A stretch of 64,000 nt of DNA from Pseudonocardiaceae bacterium (GCA_050699595.1 JBOHFI010000028.1:2427-66426); one strand, 5' to 3'; counted from the stretch's first letter, positions 11,141 through 31,446 are shown. Notes: generated by a model from the letters alone, not told the origin. Numbers and translations: made by a program.

Positions 11141-11611
11141 TCACTGCCCAAGCAGGTGGCTCGTCACCCGCTCGAAGACCTCGGTCAGCAGGAGTCGTTC
11201 CTGGTCGGAGAGCAGATCGACCAGGTTGTCCCGGACGCCGCGGACATGGGTGGGGGCCGCGCTGCTCAGCACCTCCTGGCCGTGGTTGGTGAGCACCGCG
11301 AGCACTCCCCGCCGGTCACCCGGGCACTCCTCGCGGCGCACCAGCCCGGTTTTCTCCATCCGCCCGATCTGATGGGAGATCCGGCTCTTGGACGACGCGA
11401 CCTGCCCGGCCAGCGTGCTCATCCGGACCTGCCCGCCGGGCGCCTCGGCCAGCCGGACCAGCAATTCGTAGTCGGCCAGTCCCAGCTGGTGCGCCTCCTG
11501 CAAGTCACGGTTCAGCTGGGCATCGAGCAGCGTCTTGCCCAGCACGTAGGCGCGCCAGGCGCGCATCTCCTCAGCATTGAGCCAGCACAGCTGGCCATTC
11601 CCCCCGACCAC
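11141..11611 (-). CDS. MarR-family transcriptional regulator
   Basis: LGLADYELLVRLAEAPGGQVRMSTLAGQVASSKSRISHQIGRMEKTGLVRREECPGDRRGVLAVLT is a typical winged-helix MarR core. Confidence 0.85.
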   Translation of the reverse strand: MVGGNGQLCWLNAEEMRAWRAYVLGKTLLDAQLNRDLQEAHQLGLADYELLVRLAEAPGGQVRMSTLAGQVASSKSRISHQIGRMEKTGLVRREECPGDRRGVLAVLTNHGQEVLSSAAPTHVRGVRDNLVDLLSDQERLLLTEVFERVTSHLLGQ

Positions 11612-16618: not shown

Positions 16619-17347
16619 TTAACCGGCGGTGAGTTCAACGCAGCACCTGCCGGCGCGGGGGGCCAGTACGGCGGTGACGGTGGAGGCCTGCAGGGCGTCG
16701 AGGAAGCCGGTGAGGAACGCGTGGTTGATACCGCAGACCAGCTGTGGTGCCCTGCTGGCCAAGGGCTGGAATGGGCAGTTGTGCAAGCGCAGGAGCAGGG
16801 GAGTGGCCCGATCGGGTTCAAAGCCATACTGAGCGAGGGTTCTGGTGGCCAGGGTCAGCGCGCGTTCGGCGCCTAGGCGCCCTCGCCGGGCTTGCTCGCG
16901 TTCGGCGGCGCCGAGTTCGGCGCCGCGGTGACGGGCGACCTGGAGAGCCGCCTCGCGACCGGTCTTGCTCTGATCTTCGGCGAGTAAGGCATCAATGAGG
17001 ATGCCGGCCAGCAGATCGTGCTCCCTGGCCGGGATGCTGATCCGCACCTGGGCGTCGGTGGGCTCGTAGACCTTCGGAGTACGACCCACTTTGCGGATCC
17101 CGCCGACCGGCTCATAGCGAGCTCGCAGCAGTCCCACCTCGACCAGCTTGTCCAGGTGGAACGCAGCCAGCCTGCGGGAAATCCCCACACTTGTGGCGGC
17201 CTCCTCTCGGCTGACCGGGCGGCGAGTCTGGCGGATGAACCCATACATCCGCCGCCGTAGCTCGTCGCTCAGCGCCGCCACGGCTACCAGCGCGGTTGCG
17301 GCAGGCAGGTGATCGGGCCTGGCACGGGAGGGAGTTGCGGGATCCAC
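16619..17347 (-). CDS. winged-helix (ArsR-like) transcriptional regulator
   Basis: LSDELRRRMYGFIRQTRRPVSREEAATSVGISRRLAAFHLDKLVEVGLLRARY... and C-terminal LHNCPF...VCGINHAFLTGFL. Confidence 0.7.
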   Translation of the reverse strand: MDPATPSRARPDHLPAATALVAVAALSDELRRRMYGFIRQTRRPVSREEAATSVGISRRLAAFHLDKLVEVGLLRARYEPVGGIRKVGRTPKVYEPTDAQVRISIPAREHDLLAGILIDALLAEDQSKTGREAALQVARHRGAELGAAEREQARRGRLGAERALTLATRTLAQYGFEPDRATPLLLRLHNCPFQPLASRAPQLVCGINHAFLTGFLDALQASTVTAVLAPRAGRCCVELTAG

Positions 17348-17973
17348 GATCCCACCTTAACGGCGGCGCTTCTCATCGAAAATCCCGGACGGCACTCTTC
17401 CACGGCTCTATTGACCCCGAGCGCCGGATAGTGCCAAACTTACCTGGAGAAATAAGTGGCCACACCCTGCTGGCATCACACCCGGCGCGCGGACTAGGCG
17501 ATCATGCATGTGTGGCGTGCACCGCAGCACCGGGGCCCTGCCACTGCCCCTCACCACGACCCCTCGCGGACCGCTCACCTGGGTGCGCCCACCCGAAGCG
17601 GGCGCACTGGGGCTGTGCCGGGAATTCGAGGTGTTCGCGGCACTGCGCACCGCGCTGCGCGGGGCGGCCACCGTGGGTCGGGGCTCGCCGAGCTGCCCCG
17701 CCATCCGTCCTCGGTCATTCCCGCTGAGCGGCGCTTCCCGCGAGCCTCGAAGAGGAAACGGGAAACAGCGTGGAAGCCTATGACCGCGAGGGATTCTTTG
17801 CCAGGATCGGAGGCGAATTTCCGGCGAGAGTCGACCATGGGACGGTGATGAATGCGGTGGAGGCCATGCGGTGGCCAGCGCATGTGCGGTGATGACGACT
17901 CGCGGTAAGCCCGGGGCCGCTCGTACTGGGCCGTGTGAGTGATTCGTTTTTCTCGCGAGTGCGTGGAGGTGGG

Positions 17974-19275
17974 ATGACCGAGCAGTGGATGTCGTTCGGG
18001 CCGGAGCTGCGGAGACTGCGGGTCGCGGCTGACCTGTCTCTCACCCGATTGGCAGGATTGCTGCACTACAGCAAGGGCCACGTCAGCAAAGTCGAGACGG
18101 GTCTCCAGCGGCCGACGCCGGAGCTGGCCCAGCGCTGCGACACGCTCCTCGGCGCGCAGGGCGCGCTCGCCACGCTGGTTCTTGCTCGGCCCTCCGTGGG
18201 CGGGGCTGGGGAAGCACTGACCAGACCGGTGACCGACGACAGCGAGGTGTGGGCGATGACCGTGGCCCCGGATGGCACGAGCAGGCTTCAGTTGGTGGAC
18301 CGCAGGCGGGTCCTGGCGGCGGGTACGACTTCAGCGCTGAGTTTCGGATTCAGCGATCGCGATGTGGCCGCTGCGGCACGGCAGGTCGCGTCGCTCGAGG
18401 GTTTGCGCGCATTGTTCGACCAGTTCCGCCGGCTCGGCCAGACCGCGAGCCCCGCGGTGGTGCTGCCCGCGCTGATCGCGCAGACGCAGACGGTGCAGGG
18501 CATCGCCGCCCACTCCGATGACCGCACCCGGGGTCCCACGCTCACGCTGGCCGCGCGGTACGCCGAGTATGCGGGCTGGATGTGCCAGGAGGCTGGCAAC
18601 GACGAGGCGGCGCTGTGGTGGACCGACCGGGCCGTGGGCCTGGCGGCCGAGGGTGGGGACCATGACCTGGCGAGCTACGCCCTGGTGCGCCGGGCGCTCA
18701 TGGCGCTCTACCGCAACGACGCCACCGCGACCGTCGGGTTGAGCCGCGGCGCGCAGCGGGGCTCGGTCCCGCCGCGTATCCGCGGGCTGGCCGCGCAGCG
18801 TGAGGCTCAGGGCCATGCCCTCGCTGGTGATCACGACGCCTGTCTGCGCTGCCTGGACCGCGCCCGTGGGCTGCTCGCGCTGGCGCCGTCGGATGCTGCT
18901 GCCCCGGTGCTCGGGTCGACGAATCTCACCGACGCCGTTAACATGATCACTGGCTGGTGTCTGTACGACCTCGGGCGGCCGGGGGAAGCCGCCGAGGTCC
19001 TCGATCGCGAGATCACCCTGCTGCCGCCGCAGGCGCTGCGCTCGCAGGCCCGGTACGGCATCCGCCGGGCGATGGCGCACGCCGCGGCCGGTGAGGTCGA
19101 GCATGCCTGCGAGATCGCCGAGCCGCTGTTGGGTGGGGTCGAGGTGGTCGGCTCGGCCACGATCCGTACCGACGTGCGCCGCCTCGCGAGGACCCTCTCC
19201 CGCTTCGGCACTACTCGATCCGTGCGCGAGCTGTCCCCTCGGCTCGCTGCGGCGTTGCAGAGTCCCGTCACCTGA
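17974..19275 (+). CDS. XRE-family HTH protein with TPR-like C-terminal domain; first gene of the TIR operon
   Basis: ATG 17974 after ggaggtggg. FGPELRRLRVAADLSLTRLAGLLHYSKGHVSKVETG, then about 350 aa of helical repeats. It ends 21 nt before the TIR gene. Confidence 0.8.
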   Translation: MTEQWMSFGPELRRLRVAADLSLTRLAGLLHYSKGHVSKVETGLQRPTPELAQRCDTLLGAQGALATLVLARPSVGGAGEALTRPVTDDSEVWAMTVAPDGTSRLQLVDRRRVLAAGTTSALSFGFSDRDVAAAARQVASLEGLRALFDQFRRLGQTASPAVVLPALIAQTQTVQGIAAHSDDRTRGPTLTLAARYAEYAGWMCQEAGNDEAALWWTDRAVGLAAEGGDHDLASYALVRRALMALYRNDATATVGLSRGAQRGSVPPRIRGLAAQREAQGHALAGDHDACLRCLDRARGLLALAPSDAAAPVLGSTNLTDAVNMITGWCLYDLGRPGEAAEVLDREITLLPPQALRSQARYGIRRAMAHAAAGEVEHACEIAEPLLGGVEVVGSATIRTDVRRLARTLSRFGTTRSVRELSPRLAAALQSPVT

Positions 19276-19296
19276 TCGGAGAAGGAGAGCTGCGGC

Positions 19297-20016
19297 ATGC
19301 ATGACATCTTCATCAACTATCGCAACGGCGACGAGGAGGGCACCGCGATGGCGATCCAGAGGGAGCTGTCTCGTCGGTTCGGCAGTGATCAGGTCTTCTT
19401 CGCCAGCAAGTCGATCGAGCCTGGCGCGAACTACATCTCCGATCTGCTCACCGCCGTCCGCAATAGCATGGTGCTGCTCGCGGTCATCGGCTCCCGCTGG
19501 CTCACCGCGGTCGATAAACAGGGCCGCAAATGCTTGGAGGACGAGAATGACTGGGTCCGCAGGGAGATTCTGGAGGCATTCGAGCACGGCGTGGTAGTCA
19601 TTCCCGTCCTGGTCGGCCACCTCCAGCCGCGACTGGACCGGTCCGACCTTCCTCCGGAGCTGGCCGGGCTTGCTGAACTCCATGCCCCCCGACTGGATAC
19701 CCACAGTTCTGAGCGAGATCTCCGCGAGCTGGGAGACAAGATCGCCAAGCTTGTCCCCTCGCTCGTCGACAGCGACCAGCCCGGGGAGCCTTCCGGACCG
19801 GACGCCGACGGACCGGCCTCGGAGACGTTGCGCGCGGGAGACCATGCCAGCTCGCAGAGCGGCGGCACCAGCACCGTGGTCAGCAACCCCCTCGGCTCGA
19901 TGAATTTCTACAGCGGAAGCCAGATCACCCGCGACGGCGTGAACGTGGCGGGTGGCAACAAGGGGGGCATCCACCAGGGGTTCGGCCCCGTGCGCAAACC
20001 TTCGGACGACCGGTGA
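19297..20016 (+). CDS. TIR-domain protein with low-complexity C-terminal tail
   Basis: MHDIFINYRNGDEEGTAMAIQRELSRRFGSDQVFFASKSIEPGANYISDLLTAVRNSMVLLAVIGSRWL...DWVRREILEAFEHGVVVIPVLV shows the bacterial TIR layout, including the conserved W-x-x-x-E position. RBS gaaggagag. Confidence 0.8.
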   Translation: MHDIFINYRNGDEEGTAMAIQRELSRRFGSDQVFFASKSIEPGANYISDLLTAVRNSMVLLAVIGSRWLTAVDKQGRKCLEDENDWVRREILEAFEHGVVVIPVLVGHLQPRLDRSDLPPELAGLAELHAPRLDTHSSERDLRELGDKIAKLVPSLVDSDQPGEPSGPDADGPASETLRAGDHASSQSGGTSTVVSNPLGSMNFYSGSQITRDGVNVAGGNKGGIHQGFGPVRKPSDDR

Positions 20017-22019
20017 TGGGCGCCGAGCCTGAATCGTTCGTCTCCGACCCCCCGGGGCTGGTGAGCACCGCCACTGGATACCAGGTCAACATCAACGGCC
20101 CCGTGGGCGACCTCGGGTTCCTTCAGGGACTGGTGCGCGCGGGCCGTGATCCGCGGACCGTCTTACTCGAGCACCTGCTGTGGCTGCACCGGCGGTTCGT
20201 CGAGCCGTATCCCTTCGGCACGGCTCGGGAGCTGCTGGCGGAGCACCGGAGCGTCGTGCTGACCGGCGAGCCGGGCAGCGGCCGGCGCGCGGTGGCGCAG
20301 ATGCTCCTGTACCGACTGCCCGGTACGGAGTTCCAGATTCGGGAGCTGCCGGATGGCGACCCAGATCAGCCGGAGCTGGACGCCACGATGGTCGACTCCG
20401 GGCAACGCCTGCTGTTGGATCTGTCCACCAGAGACGAGACGTACTGCGCCGGGGTGCTGGAACAGTTGTCGTCATACCGCCACGCGGTGCGAGATCGCGG
20501 CGCGCACCTGGTCGTCGTGCTCCCGAATAGCCGGAAGCACTATTTCAGTTCGGAACTCGGATCGTCCGTTGTGGACATCATCCGGCCGAACGGTATGGAG
20601 GTCTTCCGACGGTACTTGCGCTGGGATGACGCCACGCGCGATGCGCAACTCGATGTCGGTGAGTTGCTGGAGCTGTTGTGTTCCGAGCCGATGCAGCGAA
20701 TCGCCGAGCTGGCCGGGCTGGTGCGGTTCTTCAAGGAGTCAGAACCCGCGAAGGGGTTTTTGCGCTGGCGTGACAATGCGCTCGCGGCGCTGACCAAGTA
20801 CAGCAACGAGGTTACCGAGCAGGTGAAGGGCCTTGGCTCAGGTCAGCTGCGCGCGCTGCTGCTGACCACCGCGATGTTCAATGGAGCGCATGGGGATGCG
20901 ATCTTTACGTCGACCGCCAGACTGTGTGAGGTCATCGGGCATCCCGCAGATGACAAATCCCGACTGGAGCAAGCGGACCTCGCGGAGCAGGTCGCTGAAA
21001 TCGGAGTGACAATAGACTCTGCCGGACGAGTGTACTTCAAGCGGCTTGCCTACGACCGAGCTGTGCGCACTCATTTCTGGACTAACAATCCCGATCTGCG
21101 GGAAGATTTTCGCAAATGGATCGGGACCACGCTTGGGCACCCGACGCTCAGCAGTGAAGACCGGGACGAGGTGGTCACCCGATTCGCGCAGCAGGCGCTG
21201 CGAACCGACCGACCCGATGACCTGCGGTTCTTGGCTGAACGCTGGGTGAAGCGCACCAACCCCAGCTGGCCTTCACGCTTGCTGCCGCAGGCCGCGAGGG
21301 CTGTGGAGTGTGGTCTGAATGACGAGCGCCACGGCCTCTTCTTCCGACGCCAGCTCTACGCCTGGTCGCGAGATCCCAACCTGCCGCCAGACCTTGCCCA
21401 GGTGGTTGTCCAGGTGTGCTCGGAGGTACTCGTGCTGACCCACCCCGAGCAGGCCTTGGTCCGTCTGCACCACATCGCCCGGCGACACTTAGGTGAGCCC
21501 GGTGAGGCGGCGCGTGCCGCCTTGCTGATGCTCATCGACCGTGACCGTCGTCTGTACCGCCGTCTGCTCGACCGGGTAACCGACGGCCTGATGAAAGGCA
21601 CCGCTCGCGACCCGGCTCTGTTCGTTGAGCTCGCCGCCCCTGACCGGCTCACCCGGACGCCGCCGCTCATCGCGGACGCGGCCGTGCGAGCTCAGCTCAG
21701 TACCGGTTGGACGGCCGTGCTGGGCGGTTCGTCCTCGTCGGAGTGCACTCACCCAGTGCGGACCTGGTTAGCGGCGGCCCGCGAGGATGACTGGTACCGC
21801 GAGTGCTTGCTCACCGTGCTGGTCGAGGCAGGTGAGGGCCGGTTTGAGCTGCTCAGCCGCCTGCATGTCATGGCGCGCGACTGGGCGCACGTACCCGGGG
21901 AGTGCCAGCAGGAGCGGATCAACATCGCCGACCGCCTGGACGAAATGATCGATTCCGCGCTGGGGATCGACTTCACCGAACTCGACCTGCGAGACCGCAC
22001 CGAGGGGACCTCTCCATGA
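20013..22019 (+). CDS. large P-loop-like NTPase-fold protein with degenerate Walker A plus helical C-terminal region
   Basis: GTGATG overlap with the TIR stop codon. VVLTGEPGSGRRAVAQMLL has Lys and Ser/Thr of GxxxxGK[ST] both replaced by Arg. A Walker-B-like RLLLDLS follows, then about 450 aa of helical sequence. Confidence 0.7.
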   Translation: MMGAEPESFVSDPPGLVSTATGYQVNINGPVGDLGFLQGLVRAGRDPRTVLLEHLLWLHRRFVEPYPFGTARELLAEHRSVVLTGEPGSGRRAVAQMLLYRLPGTEFQIRELPDGDPDQPELDATMVDSGQRLLLDLSTRDETYCAGVLEQLSSYRHAVRDRGAHLVVVLPNSRKHYFSSELGSSVVDIIRPNGMEVFRRYLRWDDATRDAQLDVGELLELLCSEPMQRIAELAGLVRFFKESEPAKGFLRWRDNALAALTKYSNEVTEQVKGLGSGQLRALLLTTAMFNGAHGDAIFTSTARLCEVIGHPADDKSRLEQADLAEQVAEIGVTIDSAGRVYFKRLAYDRAVRTHFWTNNPDLREDFRKWIGTTLGHPTLSSEDRDEVVTRFAQQALRTDRPDDLRFLAERWVKRTNPSWPSRLLPQAARAVECGLNDERHGLFFRRQLYAWSRDPNLPPDLAQVVVQVCSEVLVLTHPEQALVRLHHIARRHLGEPGEAARAALLMLIDRDRRLYRRLLDRVTDGLMKGTARDPALFVELAAPDRLTRTPPLIADAAVRAQLSTGWTAVLGGSSSSECTHPVRTWLAAAREDDWYRECLLTVLVEAGEGRFELLSRLHVMARDWAHVPGECQQERINIADRLDEMIDSALGIDFTELDLRDRTEGTSP

Positions 22020-23110
22020 CCACCGAAGAGAAGACCTTGCTAGGCGTGCTCACCACCGCCGGCGTGCTGGTGCCGATCGCGCTCGGCGCCGCGCTCGGTT
22101 GGCCGGCGTGGTCGTGGCTGTTCCTCGCCGTCCCGCTTTTCGGTGCGCTGGGGCTGGCGTTCAGGAGCATCCAGCGCCACGTGCCGCCGGATGAGCGGTT
22201 ACCACCGCAGGCCTCACCACCCAGCCAAGCCGAGCAGCAGCATGAGGCACTGCCAACACCGATAGATGTCCCACTGCCGAGCGTGGTCCCCGACTACGCT
22301 TTTCACTTCTCTGCGGCGGCGTACTGGTGCCCTGTGGAGGGGTCGGCGATCCAGCACGCGGACCCCGGGGAACTCGCGGCCCATGCGATCATCGATCGGG
22401 CGTGGGCGATCACCGTGGTGGAGCAGCCTGGCAACGTCGATATCCTCAAGCATCGGCTGGCCAGCGAGCTCGGCATGGTGCGGCCGGACGGGTCTGGCGG
22501 CGTGGAGGTATGGGCCGACCAAGTCCAGCTCACGCTGTCCGATGCCGCCCGGGAACAACTGCGCAGGGGTTCAGACCTGCGCAAGGACGATGCCCTCTGG
22601 GAGCTCGAACTCGCCCGCGAGCGCCGCAAGCGCAACTACCTCAGCGACGTGCTGAAGAGCCCAGGCAGCGCGGTCACCTGGTTGCTGGTGCGGAAAGAAG
22701 ACGATGTCGAGAAAACCGTGGACCTCATCGACAAGCTGGCCCAGCTCTGCGCCGTGGCCAACCATGCGGAGGTGCCCGCGCTGGTCCCAAACGGCTCATC
22801 CCACAATGGGAGCCTCCCGACCACCTGGTTCCCCTCGGCCGGTCTCGCGGCGACACCGTTCTCCGACGCCAGGCCGGTGGTGAGCAGGGCGGGCGCGCTG
22901 ATGGACTCGCTGGACGTCGTCGGCGACGGGCGTGCCCTGTGCGCGCGCGGCCTCGCGCAGCTGATCAAAAATATCGGAAAGCCGGACGAAGCCCAGGAGA
23001 TCCAGCGGCACTTTGATGCACCCGCGACCGACAGCGAACCGGTGGAGCGTCCCGAGTCGAATGGCAACCTGAGGCCCGACGTGGAGCCGCCCCCACGGGA
23101 GGAACCCTAG
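22016..23110 (+). CDS. membrane protein: two N-terminal TM helices plus a soluble domain of unknown function
   Basis: ATGA overlap with the upstream stop. LLGVLTTAGVLVPIALGAALGWPAWSWLFLAVPLFGALGLAF, then about 300 aa with no recognisable domain and an acidic/Pro-rich tail. Confidence 0.65.
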   Translation: MTTEEKTLLGVLTTAGVLVPIALGAALGWPAWSWLFLAVPLFGALGLAFRSIQRHVPPDERLPPQASPPSQAEQQHEALPTPIDVPLPSVVPDYAFHFSAAAYWCPVEGSAIQHADPGELAAHAIIDRAWAITVVEQPGNVDILKHRLASELGMVRPDGSGGVEVWADQVQLTLSDAAREQLRRGSDLRKDDALWELELARERRKRNYLSDVLKSPGSAVTWLLVRKEDDVEKTVDLIDKLAQLCAVANHAEVPALVPNGSSHNGSLPTTWFPSAGLAATPFSDARPVVSRAGALMDSLDVVGDGRALCARGLAQLIKNIGKPDEAQEIQRHFDAPATDSEPVERPESNGNLRPDVEPPPREEP

Positions 23111-23955
23111 GGTGCTATGCGATTCTGCACGGTCCCGCCGATCACGCCCCAGAATGCCGATCGGGCGTCGCGCCGACCCACCTCGTCGTCTTTCAGCGAT
23201 CGTTTCAGCGCTTCCTCCACCGACGTGAGGAGTTCGATATCCACGGGGCGGGGGATGAGTGGTCGTTTAACGAGCAGGTCCGCGATTTCTGTCTCGGTTG
23301 CCGCACGCAGCCACTCTCGCGCGAAGGCTGCGGCGGCCCCGGAAGCCGAGGTTCCGGGCGCCGATTTGTCCTGCGCTAGGTATTGAGGGCTTTCGGCGAG
23401 TCCAGTCACGACAGGCGAGCGTGGTTTGAACATCGGTTCCGGTTGCGCCTTACTGAGGACGGCAAGGTGGTCGGCATCAAGGACGAGTTCCTCGGACTGA
23501 TTGTGGCCATTACCCTGGCACGCTATGCCGACCAGCACCACACGCACTCCGTAGTCCTGTGCCGCCCGTACTCCCTCGCGGAGGTCCTCGTCGCCGCTCA
23601 GCAGCACCGCATCGCTGATGGCCCGGTGCTGAGCGAGCGTGATGAGATCACGGTAGTTCAGGGCGTCGACTCCCTTCTGCTTGTTCTGGGCGTTGAGGCG
23701 ACCGAGGCGAAGCTTGACGTTGGGTAACCCGGCGACTTCGCGTTGCTCCTGCGTGCGGATCCCGTCGCGGGCGCCGTCGTACCAGTATGTGCGTAGCACA
23801 GGCAACTTGGTCGTCTCCGAGGCCACCTTCTGGAGCAGCTCCACGGCGAGGGACGGCTGGAGCGCCGTGCGTGCGCGGGCAGGACTGCCGCAGCACAGCT
23901 TGCCACCCTCGGCGTAAAGATAACCAGCATCGACCAAGATCGCACAGCGATCCAT
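23107..23955 (-). CDS. NYN-domain (LabA-like, PIN-fold) putative ribonuclease with C-terminal extension
   Basis: MDRCAILVDAGYLY...LRTYWYDG...KQKGVDALNYRDLITLAQHRAISDAVLLSGDEDLREGVRAAQDYGVRVVLVGI matches the NYN acidic-residue pattern. Its stop codon overlaps the stop of 22016..23110. Confidence 0.8.
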   Translation of the reverse strand: MDRCAILVDAGYLYAEGGKLCCGSPARARTALQPSLAVELLQKVASETTKLPVLRTYWYDGARDGIRTQEQREVAGLPNVKLRLGRLNAQNKQKGVDALNYRDLITLAQHRAISDAVLLSGDEDLREGVRAAQDYGVRVVLVGIACQGNGHNQSEELVLDADHLAVLSKAQPEPMFKPRSPVVTGLAESPQYLAQDKSAPGTSASGAAAAFAREWLRAATETEIADLLVKRPLIPRPVDIELLTSVEEALKRSLKDDEVGRRDARSAFWGVIGGTVQNRIAP

Positions 23956-23973
23956 TCACCCTCCACGAACACG

Positions 23974-24001
23974 AAAAAAGGGGCCGCCCGAAGACGGCCC
24001 C
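23974..24001 (-). terminator. intrinsic terminator downstream of the serine-hydrolase gene
   Basis: On the minus strand: GGGGCCG-tcttcggg-CGGCCCC followed by TTTTTT. Confidence 0.6.
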
Positions 24002-24120
24002 GGCCGCTCAACGGAGCGGTCATGCAGACTGCGTGTGTAACGCCTGTTCAGTATTGCGAAGGCAGCTGACGCTCGTCAAACCCGGACGAACGCTACAGCC
24101 CGGACACTACCCGCAGGTGT

Positions 24121-26696: not shown

Positions 26697-27836
26697 GTGA
26701 TCAAATGGAGCGACGAGCAGCAGGCGTTGCGGAAATCCTTCAGCCAGTGGCACGAGGCGTTCAGCGCCGGGCACATCGAGGACGACCGGGACAGTGTGTT
26801 CTCCCGTGCGAGATGGGACCTGGTCCGCGAGTCGGGCCTGCTGTGCCTGCCGTTCGAGCAGCGGTGGGGCGGTCGTGGCCAGGACTTGCTCACCACGATG
26901 TACGTGCTGGAGGACCTGGGATACGGCTGCCGCGACAGCGGGCTGAACTTCTCAGTGTCGACGCATATCGTGAGTGCCGGCATCCCCGTGCAGCGATTCG
27001 GCTCAGACGACCTCAAACAGCGGTACATGGCCCGGATCTGTGATGGAGCGTCGATCGGCGCGCACGCCATCACCGAGCCCGAGGCCGGTTCGGACGCCAT
27101 GAGCTTGTCCACCACGGCCACGGCCGAGGGCGACTCGTTCATTCTCGATGGCAGGAAGGCGTTCATCAGCAACGGCCCGGTCGCGGACCTGTTCGTCGTC
27201 TACGCACGGACAGGCACCGGCCATGATTTCCAGGGGATCACCGCGTTCATCGTGGAACGCGGTACCCCGGGCTTCACCATCGGGCAGTCGGTCGAGAAGA
27301 TGGGCTTGCGGACCTCCCCGTTCTGTGAGTTGACATTCGAGGGCTGCCGGGTGCCGGCAGCGAACGTCCTCGGCCGGCCCGGGTCTGGTTTCTTCATCCT
27401 CGAGTACGTTCTGGCCTGGGAGATCCTCTGCTTGTTCATCATGGCGGTGGGGGAGATGCGCCATCGTCTGGGGCGCTGCCTTGACTACGCCAAGAATCGA
27501 AAGCAGTTCGGTGCGCCCATCGGCTCGTTCCAATCCGTCGCCGACAAGATCATCGATGCCAAGATCGGGGTCGAGACGTCCCGCAAGTGGCTTTATGACA
27601 CCGCTGAGAAGCACACGAATCGGGAGAACGTGACGATGGACATCGCCATCGCCAAGCTGGTGACCAGCGAGGCCAACGTCGCCTCCGCGATGGCCGCGGT
27701 GCAGCTCTTCGGCGGCCGGGGGTACCTGACCGAGTACGGCCTGGAGAAGGATCTCCGCAACGCCATCGCGGGGACCATCTACTCCGGCACCTCGGAGATG
27801 CAGCGGCGCCGGATCGCCACGCTGCTGGGTCTTTAG
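26697..27836 (+). CDS. acyl-CoA dehydrogenase-family flavoenzyme
   Basis: GTG 26697 after aggag. GAHAITEPEAGSDAMSL...DGRKAFISNGPVADLFVVYART... and C-terminal VQLFGGRGY...RNAIAGTIYSGTSEMQRRRIA. Confidence 0.85.
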   Translation: MIKWSDEQQALRKSFSQWHEAFSAGHIEDDRDSVFSRARWDLVRESGLLCLPFEQRWGGRGQDLLTTMYVLEDLGYGCRDSGLNFSVSTHIVSAGIPVQRFGSDDLKQRYMARICDGASIGAHAITEPEAGSDAMSLSTTATAEGDSFILDGRKAFISNGPVADLFVVYARTGTGHDFQGITAFIVERGTPGFTIGQSVEKMGLRTSPFCELTFEGCRVPAANVLGRPGSGFFILEYVLAWEILCLFIMAVGEMRHRLGRCLDYAKNRKQFGAPIGSFQSVADKIIDAKIGVETSRKWLYDTAEKHTNRENVTMDIAIAKLVTSEANVASAMAAVQLFGGRGYLTEYGLEKDLRNAIAGTIYSGTSEMQRRRIATLLGL

Positions 27837-28630
27837 GGCCCAGGCCGGTCGAGGTCGGCCAGCAGAACGCGGACGTCCTGGAGCAGGTCACGGTGCTCCA
27901 GGACGGCGCGCTCGATGTGGGCGACCCAGGTGCTGCCCACGATCGCCGCGTCCGCTCCGACGTCGCGCAGCGCCGCGAGGTGGCTCCGGTCCCGGACCCC
28001 GAAGCCGACCGCGATCGGGATCTCCGTGCGCCGGCGCAGGGCGGTGATGACCGGCGCCAGCGCGCCGTAGTCGGCCGGGCCGGCTCCGGTCTTCCCATAG
28101 TGCGCCGCCAGGTAGAGATAGGCGGATCCGTGGCGCCCCGCTTCGTCCAGCACCGCATCCGCCGAGGTGGCGTAGCACGTGCTCACGATGGGTTGACCGA
28201 GCAGATGAGCGGTCTCGTAGTACCCCTGGCGCAGCCTCGGGGGCAGGCCGTGCAGCAGCAGGGCGTCCGCGCCCGCCGACTGCACTCGACCCACGAACTC
28301 CCGAGGTGGCAGTGCCCGCGCGGTGTGGCTCCAGTCCGCCAGCAGCGCGATCTTGAGATGTGACAGCCGTGGACGGACGCTTGCCACGAAGGCGAGCGTG
28401 GCGTCCAGGTCGATGCCGCCCTCCAGCGCCCGGCGAGCGGAGCGCCGGATGACCGGCCCGTCGCTCACCGAGTCGGGGAAGGGGACGGCGAGCTCCAGGC
28501 AGTCCACCCGGCAGGCGTCCAGCTGGAGGACGAGATCCTCCAGCTGGTCCAGCGGCGGGTCACCGGCGTTGAGGAACACCGCGAGCCCGATGTCTCCCGG
28601 GTGCCGGTCGGCGAAGAACGCGGACATCAC
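27833..28630 (-). CDS. tryptophan synthase alpha-chain paralogue (TrpA-like)
   Basis: LELAVPFPDSVSDGPVIRRSARRAL retains the catalytic Glu/Asp context of TrpA, with C-terminal IPIAVGFGV...GADAAIVGS. Last gene of the minus-strand operon. Confidence 0.8.
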   Translation of the reverse strand: MMSAFFADRHPGDIGLAVFLNAGDPPLDQLEDLVLQLDACRVDCLELAVPFPDSVSDGPVIRRSARRALEGGIDLDATLAFVASVRPRLSHLKIALLADWSHTARALPPREFVGRVQSAGADALLLHGLPPRLRQGYYETAHLLGQPIVSTCYATSADAVLDEAGRHGSAYLYLAAHYGKTGAGPADYGALAPVITALRRRTEIPIAVGFGVRDRSHLAALRDVGADAAIVGSTWVAHIERAVLEHRDLLQDVRVLLADLDRPGP

Positions 28631-29679
28631 CGCCCCACCAGGTGCGGGGTGCGGTCTTCGTGTCGCCGTATCCGCTCGATCAGGCGCACCGGAAGACCCC
28701 GTTCCATCGACTGACGGGCTGATCGCAGGGCTCGCGGCCAGTCATCGGCCACCCCGCACGCGATCACGAGCGCCGCGGCGTTGAGGCAGATGCTGTCGAT
28801 CGCGGCGGGTGCGCCGTCACCGGAGAGCAGCGCGAGGAAATGGCCGGCGATGGAGGTGTCCTCGGTCGCGGGGCGCAGATCCTCCAGCGATCCCGCACCG
28901 AGCCCGAGCGCCTCCGGCGTCAAGCGGACGTCACGATCGCGGGTGCTGTCATAGATGACGTTCTCCTCGAAGCCGAGGAGCTCATCGACGCCGGTGTTGT
29001 TCGAACAGACCAACATCCGCCGGCCGGACTCCCGCCCCGCGAGATACCTGAAGATGGGGAGCAGTGCTGGGTCTGACACGCCGGTGACCTGCGCCGATAC
29101 CGGCACGTCCGCCAGGAAGGGGCCGAACGAATTGAAGAACCGTCCCAGAGCGCGCATGTCCCAGGGCAGGATGTTCGTGGCGAGCAGCCTCAGCTCCCTG
29201 GGGTAGACGAAGCTCCCGGCACAGGCGATCCCGAAGGACTCCACCATGGCGTCGGTCTGCGCATAGGAGGTGCTCAGCGGGACGCCGAGCCGGTCCAGCA
29301 GGTCGACGGATCCGCAGCGGCTCGTGTACGCGCGCGAGCCGGTCTTGATCACCTTGGCGCCGATGGTCGCGGCGACGAAAGCCGCCGCGGTGGACAGGTT
29401 GAACGTGCTCGGGCCACCACCTGTGCCCACGATGTTCACGGTTGCCCGCCGCGGTGGCGCACTGCCGGCGTGGCTGTTCCGAAGCGACGCCAGCAGTGCG
29501 CCCACCGAGGCCGCGTCGGGTGTCCGAGTGGACAAAGACGATACCAGCGCCACCGCCTCGCCTGGGTGCAGCACGCGGTCGCGCAGGCGGTCCCAGAAGG
29601 ACCGCCACATGGCCTCGGTGAGGGGATAGTCCCGGGTGACGAGCGCGACGAGAACGTCGCGCTCAGCGCTAGGTCGCAT
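28627..29679 (-). CDS. anthranilate phosphoribosyltransferase paralogue (TrpD-like, glycosyltransferase family 3)
   Basis: NIVGTGGGPSTFNLSTAAAFVAATIGAKVIKTGSRAYTSRCGSVDLLDRLGV, compared with canonical VGTGGDG..TFNISTAAAFV..G..V.KHGNR..SS..GSAD.LE.LGV. Start is uncertain: ATG 29679 or 29712, and both overlap the carrier-protein gene. Confidence 0.75.
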   Translation of the reverse strand: MRPSAERDVLVALVTRDYPLTEAMWRSFWDRLRDRVLHPGEAVALVSSLSTRTPDAASVGALLASLRNSHAGSAPPRRATVNIVGTGGGPSTFNLSTAAAFVAATIGAKVIKTGSRAYTSRCGSVDLLDRLGVPLSTSYAQTDAMVESFGIACAGSFVYPRELRLLATNILPWDMRALGRFFNSFGPFLADVPVSAQVTGVSDPALLPIFRYLAGRESGRRMLVCSNNTGVDELLGFEENVIYDSTRDRDVRLTPEALGLGAGSLEDLRPATEDTSIAGHFLALLSGDGAPAAIDSICLNAAALVIACGVADDWPRALRSARQSMERGLPVRLIERIRRHEDRTPHLVGR

Positions 29680-29932
29680 CGGCTTGGCGGCGCATGTGCT
29701 CGATGAAGTCACGGATCGCCGTCACCGAGCGGAAGGTTTCCGGGACGATCTCCGCGTCGTCCAGGGGGATCTCGAACGTGTCCTCCAGCCACACGATCAC
29801 TCGCAGTACCCCGAGGCTGTCGATGACACCACCGGCGAGGAGGTCGTAGTCCTCCTCCAGCTCCTCGACGGGGACGTCGGGCATGAACTCCTTGACGATG
29901 AACTCCTTGATGGTGCGGGTCTGGTCGCTCAT
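29669..29932 (-). CDS. stand-alone acyl/peptidyl carrier protein
   Basis: 87 aa, acidic, with the phosphopantetheine site GGVIDSLGVLRVIVWLE. Confidence 0.8.
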   Translation of the reverse strand: MSDQTRTIKEFIVKEFMPDVPVEELEEDYDLLAGGVIDSLGVLRVIVWLEDTFEIPLDDAEIVPETFRSVTAIRDFIEHMRRQADAT

Positions 29933-31446
29933 GTGCTTTTCTCCTCTTGGCTGAACACGCTGCGCTGCCGGTCGATCTTTCCGGTCGACGTTTTCGGCAA
30001 CGGCGTGGTGACGATGCGTATCGTTGAGGGGATGGCCGCCCGGTCCAGGCCGCGAGCGCAGTGCCGGCGCAGCGTCAGGCTGTTCAGCCGGCTGGTCGCC
30101 TCCCGCCGGACCACCGCGTGCAGCCGGTTTCCGGCCACCTCGTCGGGGACCGCGACGACCGCGACCTCCACCACCTGATCGTGGCCGAGGATGACCTGCT
30201 CGACTACTTGCGTGCTGATCCGCACGCCGCGGACCTTCACGAAGCTGTCGGTCCGGCCTTCCAGGGTGATCGTGCCGTCGTCGTGGCGCCGCACGGTGTC
30301 GCCGGTGCGGAAGTACGTCCGCCGGCCGGCGTCACCGGGGTATGAGACGAACTTGCCGTCGTTGAGCGCCGCGCAGAGATATCCCGAGGTCTGGAACGGG
30401 GTCGCGACCCACAGCTCGCCGGTCCCCGGCCCCTCGAGGGCCTGGCCCGCGTCGTCGACGACGAGCGCGCTGACCCCCTCGATCGGCCGGCCGATCGGGA
30501 GGTGGGGCTGGGTGGCGGCGTGCGATATGTCGATCTCATGGATGAAGCTGTCGTTGGTCTCGGTCGAGCCGTAGATGTTGGAGAAGCGCGCGTGCGGGAA
30601 CAGCGCGGGGAGTGCGGCGAGCGTGCGCTGGGGGGTACTGTCGCCGGTGACGATCACGTCGCGGGTGCTGGTGACGCGGTGGCCGCTGTCCTGGGTCGCG
30701 TCGATCAGCAGGCGGTACAGCATCGGGACCGCTTGGATGACCTGCGGCTGCGCGGTCGTGATCAGGTCCACCAGGTAATGGGCGTTGGTCGCTCGGTCCT
30801 GGTCGACCAGCGCGACGCATCCCCCGTGTGCCAGCGTGGTCCAGATGTCCAGCAGGCACAGGTCGAAGTTGAGCGGCGCGTAGTTGAGGACCGTGGTGTC
30901 GCCGGTGATGCCGAAGTGGGCACCGGCCCAGTCGGTGAAGCGGTCGATCGCCGGCAGCGCCAGCGGCACGATCTTCGGTACTCCGGTCGAACCGGAGGTG
31001 GTCAGCATCAACGCGGCTTCCCCGGCCGTGAGGGGCCGCGAGCGGTCTTCGGTGGGTGCCTCGCCCACGGCCTCGCAGCTCAGGCTGCCGGGATTCGTGC
31101 CTGGGGAGAGCATGTGCCCGCAGCCGGCTTGGGTGAACAACCGCTGGAGCGTGTCGCCGCCGAGGCTGGTTGAGGGCAGCAGGATCGAACGCCGGTCCAG
31201 CAGGCACGCCAAGATCAGCGAGATGGCGTGCGGCGACTTCTTGGCGAGGATGCCGAGGGGACCCCGCCGGGGAACAGCGAGCCGTTCAAGGTGCGCCTGG
31301 GTGTCACGCGCCATCTCCTGGAGATCGCCGTAGCTGATCCGCTCGCCGTGCCAGAGCAGCGCCGGCGCGCTCGGCCGGCGTCGCGCCTGCTCGATGATGC
31401 GCTCCGGAAGTGCGGCGACCGCGATGCTCATGGTCCTGGCGTTCAT
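29929..31446 (-). CDS. stand-alone adenylation enzyme (ANL superfamily, NRPS A-domain type)
   Basis: Core motifs LTTSGSTGVPKIV, NIYGSTETN, GELWVATPFQTSGY, YFRTGDTV, GRTDSFVKVRGVRI, LPKTSTGKIDR. Confidence 0.85.
   Translation of the reverse strand: MNARTMSIAVAALPERIIEQARRRPSAPALLWHGERISYGDLQEMARDTQAHLERLAVPRRGPLGILAKKSPHAISLILACLLDRRSILLPSTSLGGDTLQRLFTQAGCGHMLSPGTNPGSLSCEAVGEAPTEDRSRPLTAGEAALMLTTSGSTGVPKIVPLALPAIDRFTDWAGAHFGITGDTTVLNYAPLNFDLCLLDIWTTLAHGGCVALVDQDRATNAHYLVDLITTAQPQVIQAVPMLYRLLIDATQDSGHRVTSTRDVIVTGDSTPQRTLAALPALFPHARFSNIYGSTETNDSFIHEIDISHAATQPHLPIGRPIEGVSALVVDDAGQALEGPGTGELWVATPFQTSGYLCAALNDGKFVSYPGDAGRRTYFRTGDTVRRHDDGTITLEGRTDSFVKVRGVRISTQVVEQVILGHDQVVEVAVVAVPDEVAGNRLHAVVRREATSRLNSLTLRRHCARGLDRAAIPSTIRIVTTPLPKTSTGKIDRQRSVFSQEEKST

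What the first reader, a model, noticed from the sequence alone, without database searches (positions are those of the whole stretch)
17974..23110. Four-gene coupled operon XRE/TPR - TIR - degenerate P-loop protein - 2-TM protein: candidate novel defence or conflict system
Directly seen: the genes are co-oriented with a 21-nt gap (19275/19297) and then overlapping stop/start codons (GTGATG at 20013-20018, ATGA at 22016-22019), which implies co-translation. The TIR protein has the bacterial TIR layout, including the W-x-x-x-E position. Established knowledge: bacterial TIR domains act as NAD+-consuming or signal-generating effectors in Thoeris, some CBASS, Avs and pAgo systems. The partners here are a 668-aa P-loop-like protein with helical repeats and a membrane protein of unknown fold, which do not match the ThsA/ThsB, CBASS or Avs architectures I know. 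The TIR is a separate small protein rather than fused to the NTPase. Inference: a sensor (XRE/TPR and/or NTPase-like scaffold), a TIR signal/effector and a membrane effector module.
Basis: partly seen in the sequence, partly recalled or inferred. Interest (0 to 1): 0.78.

Follow-up and report, generated by a model that had tools for sequence, protein, structure and literature searches.

The report
TIR plus NLR-like four-gene actinomycete cassette
This is a real four-gene operon, conserved across filamentous actinomycetes, in which a SARM1-like TIR enzyme and an NLR-like sensor protein carry the same short glycine-rich tag, which suggests an unnamed cell-suicide or immunity module of a kind already described in outline.

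Summary
Four co-oriented, coding-like ORFs sit at 17974-23110, with a 21-nt gap and then overlapping stop/start codons. The same four genes occur in the same order in 72 of 80 related loci from Streptomyces, Kitasatospora, Saccharopolyspora, Streptosporangium, Pseudonocardiales and others; 256 species genomes encode the large protein.

- **g1** is an NsdA-family XRE/TPR regulator.
- **g2** is a TIR whose invariant Glu aligns with the catalytic E642 of SARM1.
- **g3** has a STAND (NLR-like) fold with a family-wide degenerate Walker A (K to R) and a helical solenoid.
- **g4** is a 2-TM hairpin protein with a weakly SPFH-like cytoplasmic domain.

Cognate pairs are more alike than non-cognate pairs, and one natural TIR-STAND fusion lacks the motif. 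This is the layout of amyloid-signalling (BASS-type) NLR/effector pairs. In this window the match is decayed (z 2.6).

PADLOC, NCBIfam and Pfam name no system for it.

Verdict: a new variant of a known kind. The likely function is regulated NAD+ depletion. An immune role is inferred, not shown.

The parts
17974..19275 (+). g1: XRE-type HTH plus TPR-like regulator of the NsdA family (433 aa from ATG 17974; alternative GTG 17935)
   Evidence: Pfam HTH_31 7.3e-14 on residues 8-65. NCBIfam NF053720 NsdA_fam_reg 2.3e-54, 185.5 bits against a cut-off of 75. Found upstream of the TIR gene in 75 of 80 loci at 49-86% identity, the best conserved of the four genes.
19276..19296 (+). 21-nt g1/g2 spacer with a Shine-Dalgarno-like AGAAGGAGAG
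   Evidence: Read directly. The median g1-g2 gap in related loci is 15 nt.
19297..20016 (+). g2: stand-alone TIR protein (239 aa). TIR domain about residues 1-158; G/N/Q-rich tail residues 159-239
   Evidence: Pfam TIR_2 2.4e-8, 35 bits against 28. The closest solved structure is the SARM1 TIR. 671 homologues, the 120 listed all 144-277 aa. The exact protein is P0155, from a Pseudonocardiaceae MAG.
19564..19566 (+). Codon of Glu90 (DWVRRE), the predicted catalytic glutamate of the TIR
   Evidence: Invariant in 80 of 80 homologues, together with D85, W86 and R88. Aligns without gaps to residue 642 of full-length SARM1. That E642 is the catalytic residue is established knowledge.
19876..19941 (+). 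TIR-tail copy of the shared motif (residues 194-215, VVSNPLGSMNFYSGSQITRDGV); degenerate in this genome
   Evidence: Family consensus is [FYV][VI]x[ED][AS]xGP[VL]H[TS]GxGxQ[FY]N. The PSSM score here is 4.2, against 20-40 in most loci and a shuffled maximum of 3.4. The divergence is by clustered point substitutions, not a frameshift.
20016..22019 (+). g3: STAND/NLR-like protein (667 aa from ATG 20016; GTG 20013 is an in-frame alternative)
   Evidence: AlphaFold2 model with pLDDT 87 and pTM 0.84. Layout: disordered 1-42, nucleotide-binding domain (NBD) 78-192, helical domain 193-320, winged helix 321-358, helical repeats 359-650. Foldseek top hits are a STAND-TPR protein (6mfv), NOD2, MalT, an Avs5 filament and AAA+ proteins. 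Pfam nSTAND3 1.8e-7, partial.
20037..20102 (+). g3 N-terminal copy of the shared motif (residues 8-29, FVSDPPGLVSTATGYQVNINGP)
   Evidence: PSSM score 19.5. Lies in the segment with pLDDT below 50. Local alignment of tail against N-terminus in this window gives z 2.6, p 0.025; the family median z is 6.6.
20265..20288 (+). Degenerate Walker A, GEPGSGRR
   Evidence: In 74 homologues the Lys position is R in 68 and K in 1. The following Ser/Thr position is R/H/N/S/Q.
20409..20426 (+). Walker B-like LLLDLS, with a single acidic residue
   Evidence: D in 71 of 74, followed by L and S/T, with no second acidic residue.
21090..21965 (+). C-terminal alpha-solenoid of g3 (residues 359-650), the presumed ligand- or partner-binding domain; contains the near-invariant ALVRLHH motif
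   Evidence: Helices listed. Invariant A480, V482, R483, L484 and near-invariant H485, H486. Importin/condensin-type repeat proteins appear among the Foldseek hits. As conserved as the NBD (0.54-0.59 against 0.57).
22016..23110 (+). g4: membrane protein (364 aa) of an orphan family
   Evidence: No Pfam, NCBIfam, PADLOC or PDB sequence match. 515 cluster representatives, almost all near full-length matches with no wider relatives. Follows g3 in 76 of 80 loci.
22022..22177 (+). g4 transmembrane hairpin (helices 3-27 and 31-54)
   Evidence: AlphaFold2/DSSP. Conserved GWPxWSW turn. Retained in the 108-aa Saccharopolyspora version.
22253..22765 (+). g4 cytoplasmic alpha/beta domain plus long helix (residues 80-250), SPFH-like by fold
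   Evidence: pLDDT mostly 82-96 across this stretch. Foldseek PDB hits are prohibitin (8rrh, 7e-4), stomatin (3bk6), HflK/C, flotillin and FliL, with low TM-scores. Pfam Band_7 is not detected.
22874..23014 (+). g4 C-terminal helices (residues 287-333, ...GKPDEAQEIQRHFDAP)
   Evidence: Conserved in alignment A2. Together with the TM hairpin, this is the only part of g4 kept in the Saccharopolyspora mini-version.

Best explanation
The region is a chromosomal four-gene module for regulated cell death or immunity, built on the NLR principle.

- g1, an XRE/NsdA-family DNA-binding protein, sets expression of the operon.
- g3 is the sensor and scaffold. It has the STAND fold and a helical solenoid. 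Its P-loop has lost the Walker A lysine across the whole family, so it probably switches by binding rather than by hydrolysing nucleotide.
- When g3 is triggered and oligomerises, its disordered N-terminal ~22-residue G/N/Q-rich motif pairs with the homologous motif in the C-terminal tail of the separately encoded TIR protein g2. The pairing may work by amyloid-like templating, as in BASS/HET-s systems.
- This clusters the SARM1-like TIR domains, which then hydrolyse NAD+ and stop growth or kill the cell.
- g2 and g3 are translationally coupled, which would keep their amounts matched.
- g4 is held in the membrane by a TM hairpin and faces the cytoplasm. It anchors or gates the complex through its C-terminal helices, with an SPFH-like scaffold domain in most lineages.

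Shown: the gene set, its conservation, the folds, the catalytic-residue alignment and the shared motif. Inferred: oligomerisation, templating, NADase activity, the trigger, the role of g4 and the anti-phage purpose.
For: Synteny and coupling. The four genes are syntenic in 72 of 80 loci across many genera. The g2/g3 stop-start overlap occurs in 77 of 79 loci.

Shared motif.
- One PSSM fits both the TIR tails and the g3 N-termini, scoring 20-40 against a shuffled maximum of 3.4.
- A model-free local alignment gives median z 6.6, with z above 3 in 67 of 80 loci.
- Cognate pairs are more alike than non-cognate pairs (BLOSUM 44 against 35; permutation p 5e-5; n=61).
- The minimal three-gene locus L031 has 15 of 22 identical residues.
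- The motif region of g3 is modelled as disordered.
- The tail is rich in G, N and Q and poor in L and K, as reported for BASS motifs.
- 13 of 80 tails also carry a block resembling BASS2.
- The natural fusion P0031 (TIR_2 plus nSTAND3, 798 aa) lacks both the tail and the N-terminal motif, and is still followed by a g4 homologue.

TIR. It is nearest to the SARM1 TIR, and E90 aligns with E642. E90 is invariant.

g3. High-confidence STAND architecture.

Precedents. TIR2-BASS/NLR pairs are noted by Dyrka et al.. A validated amyloid-signalling antiphage pair, Bab/Agp, is described. Avs5 couples nSTAND3 to an NAD-targeting effector.
Against: - No experiment exists for any member.
- In this window the motif match is weak (z 2.6, p 0.025; tail PSSM 4.2), so this copy may couple poorly or differently.
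- The core motif fragments are absent from the published BASS1-10 pair table, and amyloid formation is untested.
- The degenerate Walker A and B question a normal STAND switch. Avs5 needs its Walker A lysine.
- The solenoid is no more variable than the NBD, unlike many arms-race sensors.
- The cassette is absent from phages and from ordinary plasmids.
- It lies in core housekeeping DNA in about 32 Streptomyces species.
- No defence genes were seen next to it in the window.
- PADLOC finds nothing.
- The SPFH similarity of g4 is marginal (E 7e-4, TM 0.2-0.48).
Confidence: 0.5

Rival explanations
1. Thoeris-like signalling. The TIR protein makes a cyclic or linear ADPR-derived messenger. The membrane protein g4 (or g3) is the receptor and effector that damages the membrane. 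g3 only modulates the TIR.
For: - TIR-plus-transmembrane-effector operons are common among the newly described Thoeris types.
- g4 is a conserved 2-TM protein translationally linked to the operon.
- SARM1-type TIRs can also cyclise ADPR (established knowledge).
Against: - ThsB models do not match: PADLOC ThsB1 E 0.037; NCBIfam ThcB4 at 11 bits against a cut-off of 220.
- The TIR is physically tied to the STAND protein by a shared motif and by a natural fusion. That is the pattern of NLR effector domains, not of free signal generators.
- In Saccharopolyspora, g4 loses its whole globular domain and keeps only the hairpin and one helix. That leaves no obvious ligand pocket.
Confidence: 0.13
2. 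The module is not antiviral. It is an endogenous regulatory or programmed-death device of filamentous actinomycetes (development, hyphal compartment death, stress), governed by an NsdA-like regulator.
For: - g1 belongs to the family named after NsdA, a Streptomyces regulator of sporulation and antibiotic production (the biology is established knowledge).
- The cassette sits at a conserved core position, fmt-priA-[cassette]-metK-coaBC-rpoZ-gmk, in about 32 Streptomyces species.
- It is absent from phages and from ordinary plasmids.
- All g3 domains are evenly conserved.
- BASS/NLR pairs are enriched in multicellular bacteria.
Against: - Distribution is patchy: 256 species genomes among 185,579.
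- The position differs in other genomes. In S. clavuligerus the cassette lies next to an IS, and loci from other genera have unrelated flanks.
- Decayed or rearranged copies exist (L038, P0032, and the degenerate motif in this window). That fits a dispensable accessory system.
- The TIR-plus-STAND grammar is that of validated defence systems.
Confidence: 0.2
3. The shared motif is an ordinary non-amyloid docking peptide or small adaptor, like the effector-associated domains of Kaur et al. It recruits the TIR one-to-one to the STAND oligomer without templated polymerisation.
For: - Homotypic adaptor pairs between a core NTPase and an adjacent effector are widespread.
- The core motif is not among BASS1-10.
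- Gly/His-rich sequences (GPVHTGxGxQ) could form a turn or a metal-binding element rather than a cross-beta core.
Against: - Length (~22 aa), predicted disorder, G/N/Q-rich and L/K-poor composition, the extra pseudo-repeat-like blocks in the effector only, and the BASS2-like block in 13 of 80 tails all match amyloid-signalling motifs.
- EADs are globular domains, not 22-residue segments.
Confidence: 0.3
4. The copy in this window is a decaying, non-functional relic of the system.
For: - The TIR-tail motif has lost His, Thr and Gly of the core through clustered substitutions.
- The tail-to-N-terminus match is only z 2.6.
- A NYN-domain gene, not seen in any related locus, overlaps the 3' end of g4.
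Against: - All four ORFs are intact with a strong coding signature.
- The TIR catalytic residues are intact.
- Both motif copies changed at the same core positions (H and the second G), which could be co-variation.
- Translational coupling is preserved.
Confidence: 0.12

Closest known systems
BASS amyloid-signalling NLR/effector gene pairs of filamentous bacteria (Dyrka et al. 2020, bioRxiv 10.1101/2020.01.06.895854), and the validated E. coli Bab/Agp pair (bioRxiv 10.1101/2024.11.07.622273)
   Same: - The effector gene lies immediately upstream of, and is collinear with, an NLR-like gene, usually with overlapping stop and start.
- A ~20-25-aa G/N/Q-rich motif sits at the effector C-terminus and at the NLR N-terminus.
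- The effector carries extra repeat-like blocks.
- The hosts are actinomycetes.
- TIR2 is listed among non-Bell effectors.
- 13 of 80 tails carry a BASS2-like block.
   Different: - The NTPase is not NACHT or NB-ARC. It is a weak nSTAND3 match with a dead-looking P-loop.
- The core motif (GP[VL]H[TS]GxGxQ) is not in the BASS1-10 table.
- Two further conserved genes (the XRE/NsdA regulator and the TM/SPFH-like protein) belong to the unit.
- Amyloid formation is untested.
Avs5 / AVAST type 5 (SIR2-nSTAND3-repeat protein)
   Same: - The NTPase domain hits the same Pfam family, nSTAND3.
- Walker B has a single acidic residue.
- The sensor is a C-terminal helical repeat domain.
- The effector targets NAD+.
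- The Avs5 filament appears among the Foldseek hits.
   Different: - Avs5 is a single polypeptide with a SIR2 effector and a functional GxxGxGK[ST] that is needed for defence.
- Here the effector is a separate TIR, the Walker A lysine is Arg, and only 51 of 155 nSTAND3 positions match.
- No PADLOC Avs model matches.
SARM1 TIR domain (NAD+ hydrolase)
   Same: - It is the best sequence match among solved structures.
- The DWV[HR][KR]E segment aligns, and the catalytic Glu is conserved.
- Activity of such TIRs depends on oligomerisation (established knowledge).
   Different: - The match is weak (E 1.4e-3).
- SARM1 is regulated by ARM and SAM domains in one chain, not by a separate STAND protein.
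EAD-coupled and inactive-STAND (iSTAND) conflict systems of multicellular prokaryotes (Kaur, Burroughs, Iyer, Aravind 2020, 2021)
   Same: - The same adaptor occurs on the core NTPase and on an adjacent effector.
- TIR effectors are used.
- Catalytically inactive STAND modules occur.
- The systems are enriched in actinomycetes.
   Different: - There is no MoxR-vWA pair.
- The adaptor here is a short disordered motif rather than a globular EAD.
- The effector is fixed (always TIR) rather than swapped.
Thoeris (ThsB TIR plus effector)
   Same: A small stand-alone TIR protein in an operon with a membrane protein.
   Different: - No ThsB or ThsA model matches.
- A STAND protein is present and is linked to the TIR by a motif and by a natural fusion.
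SPFH (stomatin/prohibitin/flotillin/HflK/C) membrane scaffolds
   Same: g4 has an N-terminal membrane hairpin, then an alpha/beta domain and a long helix. SPFH proteins are the top Foldseek hits.
   Different: - There is no sequence-level match to Band_7.
- TM-scores are low.
- The domain is dispensable in Saccharopolyspora.
- No NfeD partner was noted among the genes examined.

Membership tests
BASS-type amyloid-signalling NLR/effector pair | Effector and NLR-like genes are adjacent and collinear | tested here: met
   g2 lies directly upstream of g3. Stop and start overlap in the window and in 77 of 79 loci.
BASS-type amyloid-signalling NLR/effector pair | The same short motif occurs at the effector C-terminus and at the NLR N-terminus | tested here: met
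   For the family: PSSM 20-40 against a shuffled maximum of 3.4; local alignment median z 6.6; cognate above non-cognate, p 5e-5. For this window only marginal: z 2.6, p 0.025.
BASS-type amyloid-signalling NLR/effector pair | The partner has NLR architecture (nucleotide-binding oligomerisation domain plus repeats) | tested here: met
   The AlphaFold2 model shows NBD, helical domain, winged helix and solenoid. STAND, NOD2 and MalT are among the Foldseek hits. Pfam NACHT and NB-ARC are not hit.
BASS-type amyloid-signalling NLR/effector pair | The motif belongs to one of the described classes BASS1-10 | tested here: not met
   Core fragments (VHTG, VHSG, LHTG, GSGNQ, GSGDQ, GTGDQ) are absent from supplementary table 2. 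Only an accessory block in 13 of 80 TIR tails resembles BASS2, and none of the g3 N-termini has it.
BASS-type amyloid-signalling NLR/effector pair | The motif forms amyloid, and the NLR side templates the effector side | not testable with these tools
   Only the composition (G 18.8%, N 6.6%, Q 5.3%, L 2.1%, K 1.7%) and predicted disorder are consistent.
Avs / AVAST (STAND antiviral ATPases) | Canonical Walker A GxxxxGK[ST], required for function | tested here: not met
   GEPGSGRR in the window. R in 68 of 74 and K in 1 of 74 at the Lys position.
Avs / AVAST (STAND antiviral ATPases) | The effector domain is fused to the N-terminus of the STAND protein | tested here: not met
   The TIR is a separate gene in the 79 loci where it was found. 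A single metagenomic fusion exists, P0031.
Avs / AVAST (STAND antiviral ATPases) | Match to Avs profile models | tested here: not met
   PADLOC returns only PDC-S73 at E 9e-4, 16 bits, on the P-loop stretch.
Pfam nSTAND3 (PF20720) | Score above the gathering threshold over the domain | tested here: inconclusive
   31.4 bits against 27.2, but only model positions 1-51 of 155 align. Many homologues carry the precomputed PF20720 label.
Thoeris | ThsB-type TIR together with a recognised Ths effector | tested here: not met
   PADLOC ThsB1 E 0.037. NCBIfam ThcB4 at 11.3 bits against a cut-off of 220. No effector model hit for g3 or g4.
TIR NADase (SARM1-like, Pfam TIR_2) | TIR fold signature plus a catalytic glutamate at the SARM1 E642 position | tested here: met
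   TIR_2 at 35 bits against 28. E90 aligns to E642 and is invariant in 80 sequences. Enzymatic activity itself was not tested.
NsdA-family XRE/TPR-like regulators (NCBIfam NF053720) | Score above the curated cut-off over the full length | tested here: met
   185.5 bits against 75; residues 25-421 against model positions 29-430 of 432. The same holds for the Streptomyces orthologue in L047.
SPFH / Band 7 | Sequence match to Band_7, or a clear structural superposition | tested here: inconclusive
   No Pfam hit in any of 33 members. Foldseek top hits are all SPFH proteins, but E is 7e-4 to 0.08 and TM-scores are 0.2-0.48.
Actinobacterial holin-X (PF07332) | Score above the gathering threshold | tested here: not met
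   About 9 bits against 28.4, on the TM hairpin only, with a best E of 0.035. This is treated as hydrophobic noise.

The most novel reading that the evidence does not exclude
This is a previously undescribed four-component immune or suicide system of filamentous actinomycetes. A pseudo-NTPase NLR has lost ATP hydrolysis. It transmits activation by prion-like templating of a new amyloid motif class (GP[VL]H[TS]GxGxQ) to a SARM1-like TIR NADase. A membrane-anchored SPFH-like cage (g4) acts as the trigger sensor or gate, for example for envelope breach during phage entry. An RRNPP-like XRE/TPR regulator (g1) sets the threshold.
Probability: 0.2. Interest if true: 0.8.

Novelty: new variant of a known kind. 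Interest (0 to 1): 0.62.

Why it matters
If the model is right, three things follow.
- Amyloid-like NLR signalling in bacteria would extend from pore-forming Bell effectors to an enzymatic SARM1-like NADase. It would also extend to a STAND clade (nSTAND3-like) that earlier motif screens could not see, because they required NACHT or NB-ARC.
- It would give a natural example of an NLR that works with a dead P-loop.
- It would add a membrane SPFH-like partner to NLR signalling.

The cassette is present in tractable strains: S. clavuligerus ATCC 27064, S. rimosus and Saccharopolyspora spinosa NRRL 18395. The ideas are therefore directly testable, and the cassette would add an unnamed entry to the sparse catalogue of Streptomyces defence and regulated-death systems.

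Tried and rejected
1. **NYN gene (23107-23955, minus) as a fifth member.** It is absent from all 80 related loci. Rejected.
2. **Upstream HTH_20 gene (16619-17347, minus) as a member.** It is found only in the closest relative, L001. Rejected.
3. **Palindrome CATGCGGTGGCCAGCGCATG (17865-17884) as the g1 operator.** It is not found in any related locus, and 39 of 100 shuffles give at least one such match. Rejected.
4. **Promoter and terminator scans of 17300-24100.** Nothing above the shuffled expectation within the operon.
5. **Known defence systems.** PADLOC, NCBIfam and Pfam give no system-level match.
6. **g4 as a holin.** Holin-X hits are noise level.
7. **g4 relatives by sequence.** No PDB match. 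The exhaustive profile search finds only the same compact family.
8. **g1 against solved structures.** Nothing useful, so an RRNPP relationship remains untested.
9. **Core motif as a known BASS class.** It is not in BASS1-10.
10. **A compensated frameshift or assembly error as the cause of the degenerate window motif.** The DNA alignment shows in-frame point substitutions.
11. **Mobility.** No phage hits, and only two hits on 2.8-3.1 Mb replicons listed as plasmids.
12. **Literature.** Searches for the motif string and for NsdA+TIR or SPFH+TIR combinations found no description of this cassette.
13. **Second XRE gene at 33970-35247 as a g1 paralogue.** No meaningful similarity.

Full report
**1. 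What is in the sequence**

The window is high-GC actinomycete DNA. The TIR protein is 100% identical to a protein from a Pseudonocardiaceae MAG (P0155). Four + strand ORFs occupy 17974-23110. All show third-position GC of 0.79-0.85 and second-position GC of 0.45-0.56.

- A 21-nt spacer with a GGAG-type ribosome-binding site separates g1 from g2.
- GTGATG lies at 20013-20018.
- ATGA lies at 22016-22019.

Because homologues of the large protein start MS/MG, ATG 20016 is the likelier g3 start. On the minus strand, a NYN-domain gene (23107-23955) converges on g4, and the two stop codons overlap in CTAG.

**2. The four proteins**

g1 (433 aa) has an XRE-type HTH (HTH_31, 7e-14). It matches the NCBIfam NsdA-family TPR-like regulator model over its whole length, at 185 bits against a cut-off of 75.

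g2 (239 aa) is a TIR_2 protein.
- Its nearest solved relative is the TIR domain of SARM1.
- From residue 85 onward the alignment has no gaps, which places Glu90 of DWVRRE on SARM1 residue 642. That residue is the catalytic glutamate by established knowledge.
- In 80 homologues D85, W86, R88 and E90 are invariant.

g3 (667 aa) gives a confident AlphaFold2 model (pLDDT 87, pTM 0.84).
- Residues 1-42 are disordered.
- A five-stranded P-loop domain follows, then a helical domain, a winged helix and a long helical solenoid.
- Foldseek places it with STAND and AAA+ proteins: a STAND-TPR protein (6mfv), NOD2, MalT, the Avs5 filament, RuvB and RFC. The solenoid resembles importin- and condensin-type repeats.
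- Pfam nSTAND3 is hit just above threshold, but only over the first third of the model.
- In 74 homologues the Walker A lysine is Arg in 68 and Lys in one. The following Ser/Thr is not kept, and Walker B has a single Asp. The 'degenerate P-loop' is therefore a property of the family, not of this copy.

g4 (364 aa) has no sequence family.
- The model shows a TM hairpin (residues 3-27 and 31-54), a confident alpha/beta domain with a long helix (80-250), and C-terminal helices.
- The best structural matches are all SPFH proteins (prohibitin, stomatin, HflK/C, flotillin, FliL), but at marginal scores.
- An exhaustive profile search finds 515 cluster representatives, almost all near full-length matches (about 260-690 aa, most 330-450), and no wider relatives.

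**3. Conservation**

A scan of one genome per species found relatives of g3 in 256 genomes.
- In the 80 best loci, tblastn finds g1, g2, g3 and g4 in the same order and strand in 72.
- The genera include Streptomyces, Kitasatospora, Saccharopolyspora, Streptosporangium, Sphaerisporangium, Actinomadura, Sinosporangium, Spirillospora and Peterkaempfera, plus Pseudonocardiales and Egibacteraceae MAGs.
- The NYN gene and the upstream HTH_20 gene are not conserved, so they are not part of the unit.
- The g2/g3 overlap is -4 in 68 loci and -1 in 9 of 79. g3/g4 are within 30 nt in 68 of 76.
- S. clavuligerus ATCC 27064 carries the same four genes.

Variants are informative.
- L008, L031 and the P0031 contig lack g1.
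- Saccharopolyspora has a 108-aa g4 that keeps only the TM hairpin and the C-terminal helix.
- L038 has a truncated TIR gene followed by 3.5 kb of unrelated genes.
- P0031 is a TIR-STAND fusion. P0032 joins g3 to the C-terminal part of g4.

**4.

The C-terminal tail of the TIR protein and the N-terminus of g3 share a ~22-residue motif. Its consensus is [FYV][VI]x[ED][AS]xGP[VL]H[TS]GxGxQ[FY]N.

- One PSSM scores 20-40 on both sides in most loci, against a maximum of 3.4 for shuffled sequences.
- That PSSM was built from the same sequences, so I also ran a model-free test. Local alignment of the last 100 residues of g2 against the g3 N-terminal region gives median z 6.6 against 200 shuffles, with z above 3 in 67 of 80 loci.
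- Cognate pairs are more alike than non-cognate pairs: 8.9 against 7.6 identities of 22, and BLOSUM 44 against 35, with permutation p 5e-5. Related loci are not independent, so that p-value is only indicative.
- In the three-gene locus L031 the two copies share 15 of 22 residues.
- The TIR-STAND fusion P0031 lacks both the tail and the N-terminal motif. This is expected if their only job is to join the two proteins.
- The tail is G/N/Q-rich and L/K-poor, and the g3 copy lies in the disordered segment.
- The tails contain further blocks. In 13 of 80 loci one block closely resembles published BASS2 sequences. For example, L041 has VHNAVSGGSQGTVVQSRDFTG, against BASS2 VHSTISGGTQYGPVLQGRDFS.
- The core motif itself is not in the BASS1-10 table. 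That screen required a Bell effector and a NACHT or NB-ARC partner, so it could not have found this family.

**5. This window's copy**

Here the match is weak. The tail reads VVSNPLGSMNFYSGSQITRDGV (PSSM 4.2) and the g3 N-terminus reads FVSDPPGLVSTATGYQVNINGP (19.5). The local alignment gives z 2.6, p 0.025. The DNA alignment with close relatives shows clustered in-frame substitutions, not a frameshift. Both copies lost the His and the second Gly of the core. This may be co-variation or early decay. Everything else is intact.

**6. Genomic setting**

In the window the neighbours are a proteasome activator, dehydrogenases, a beta-lactamase-fold protein, an aminotransferase, an acyl-CoA dehydrogenase and Trp-pathway paralogues. 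No mobile or defence genes were seen among the ORFs examined.

In about 32 Streptomyces species the flanks are shared. In L047 the order is fmt, priA, [cassette], metK, coaBC, rpoZ, gmk ... pyrD, which is core housekeeping DNA. Other genera have unrelated flanks, and S. clavuligerus has the cassette next to cobN and an IS. There are no phage hits, and only two hits on megabase-sized replicons listed as plasmids. The g3 domains are evenly conserved, at 0.54-0.62.

**7. Interpretation**

The best-supported reading is an NLR-type module.
- g3 is the sensor and scaffold.
- g2 is a SARM1-like NADase effector recruited through the shared motif, possibly by amyloid-like templating.
- g1 is the transcriptional regulator.
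- g4 is a membrane-anchored partner.

The gene set, the folds, the catalytic-residue alignment and the motif are shown. Activation, templating, NAD+ hydrolysis, the trigger and the biological purpose are inferred by analogy. The analogues are BASS pairs, the validated Bab/Agp system, Avs5 and the EAD and iSTAND systems.

The rivals are:
- a Thoeris-like signalling scheme with g4 as effector;
- an endogenous developmental or stress-death role, suggested by the NsdA-family regulator and the core chromosomal site;
- a plain docking motif without amyloid;
- decay of this particular copy.

**8. Novelty**

No library or paper searched names this cassette. Homologues are annotated 'hypothetical', 'nSTAND3 domain-containing NTPase' or, wrongly, 'ABC transporter substrate-binding protein'.

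The principle is already described: a STAND protein plus a separate effector with a matched terminal motif, with TIR as a possible effector. I therefore rate this a new variant of a known kind. Its distinguishing marks are the family-wide pseudo-P-loop, a new motif class, and two extra conserved genes.

Noticed in passing
window 23107-23955 (-): A 282-aa NYN-domain (predicted RNase) gene converges on g4. The two stop codons overlap in CTAG. It is absent from all 80 related loci, so it is a lineage-specific neighbour.
   Followed up: partly
L057 9989-10315 (+) (Saccharopolyspora spinosa NRRL 18395); also L051, L052, L064: In Saccharopolyspora, g4 is replaced by a 108-aa protein with only the TM hairpin and the conserved C-terminal helix (…RFAKLIEAAGNPGVADEVRQRFDAP). 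The SPFH-like domain is missing.
   Followed up: partly
P0031 (JGI contig, 6542 bp) and P0032 (NCBI contig, 40.9 kb): P0031 is a natural TIR_2-STAND fusion (798 aa). It lacks the TIR tail and the STAND N-terminal motif, has no g1 upstream, and is followed by a g4 homologue. P0032 joins most of g3 in frame to the C-terminal third of g4, which looks like a deletion.
   Followed up: partly
L012, L020, L028, L033, L034, L041, L044, L050, L056, L064, L068, L071, L074 (TIR tails): 13 of 80 TIR tails carry an extra block upstream of the shared motif that closely resembles published BASS2 amyloid motifs (…GGxQGTVVQxRDFTG…). None of the cognate g3 N-termini has it. This raises the possibility of cross-talk with other NLRs in the same genome.
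   Followed up: partly
L038 4442-8000 (Streptomyces sp. NBC_01622): The TIR gene is truncated after about 162 residues. It is separated from g3 by 3.5 kb encoding a LysR regulator, an inositol monophosphatase-family protein and an oxidoreductase. This is a disrupted copy of the cassette.
   Followed up: yes
L047 (Streptomyces sp. YU58) and about 31 other Streptomyces loci: The cassette sits between priA and metK, inside the fmt-priA-metK-coaBC-rpoZ-gmk-pyrD housekeeping cluster. I could not test whether species lacking the cassette have priA and metK adjacent.
   Followed up: partly
L081 (S. clavuligerus ATCC 27064, CM001015.1, 3028767-3041558): The same four genes lie at a different chromosomal site, downstream of cobN and followed by an IS (HTH_28/HTH_33 plus a DDE_3 transposase).
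   Followed up: no
annotation column: Several Streptomyces g3 homologues are named 'ABC transporter substrate-binding protein' in NCBI and UniRef. This appears to be a mis-annotation, given the STAND fold.
   Followed up: no
window 9903-9988 (-) and 3300-9900: The only RNA gene in the window is a tRNA-Ser (TGA). The adjacent 4-10 kb stretch has lower GC (0.635-0.67) than its surroundings (0.69-0.72). It could be an integrated element.
   Followed up: no
window 33970-35247 (+): A second XRE-type (HTH_31) 425-aa protein with a long helical C-terminal part. It is not detectably related to g1 (BLASTP E 0.04).
   Followed up: partly
window 35000-38000: This stretch has lower GC (0.63-0.66) and strong positive GC skew (up to 0.16). 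It contains a 398-aa minus-strand ORF (35819-37015) that I did not annotate.
   Followed up: no
window 27833-32279 (-): A run of Trp-pathway-like genes (TrpA-like, a family-3 glycosyl transferase of the TrpD type, an IGPS/TrpC-like protein) is interleaved with an AMP-binding enzyme. It may belong to a specialised-metabolite cluster rather than to primary tryptophan synthesis.
   Followed up: no
window 430-3276 (+) and 10000-11163 (-): Two large ORFs with coding-like composition (948 aa and 387 aa) have no Pfam family at E <= 1e-4.
   Followed up: no
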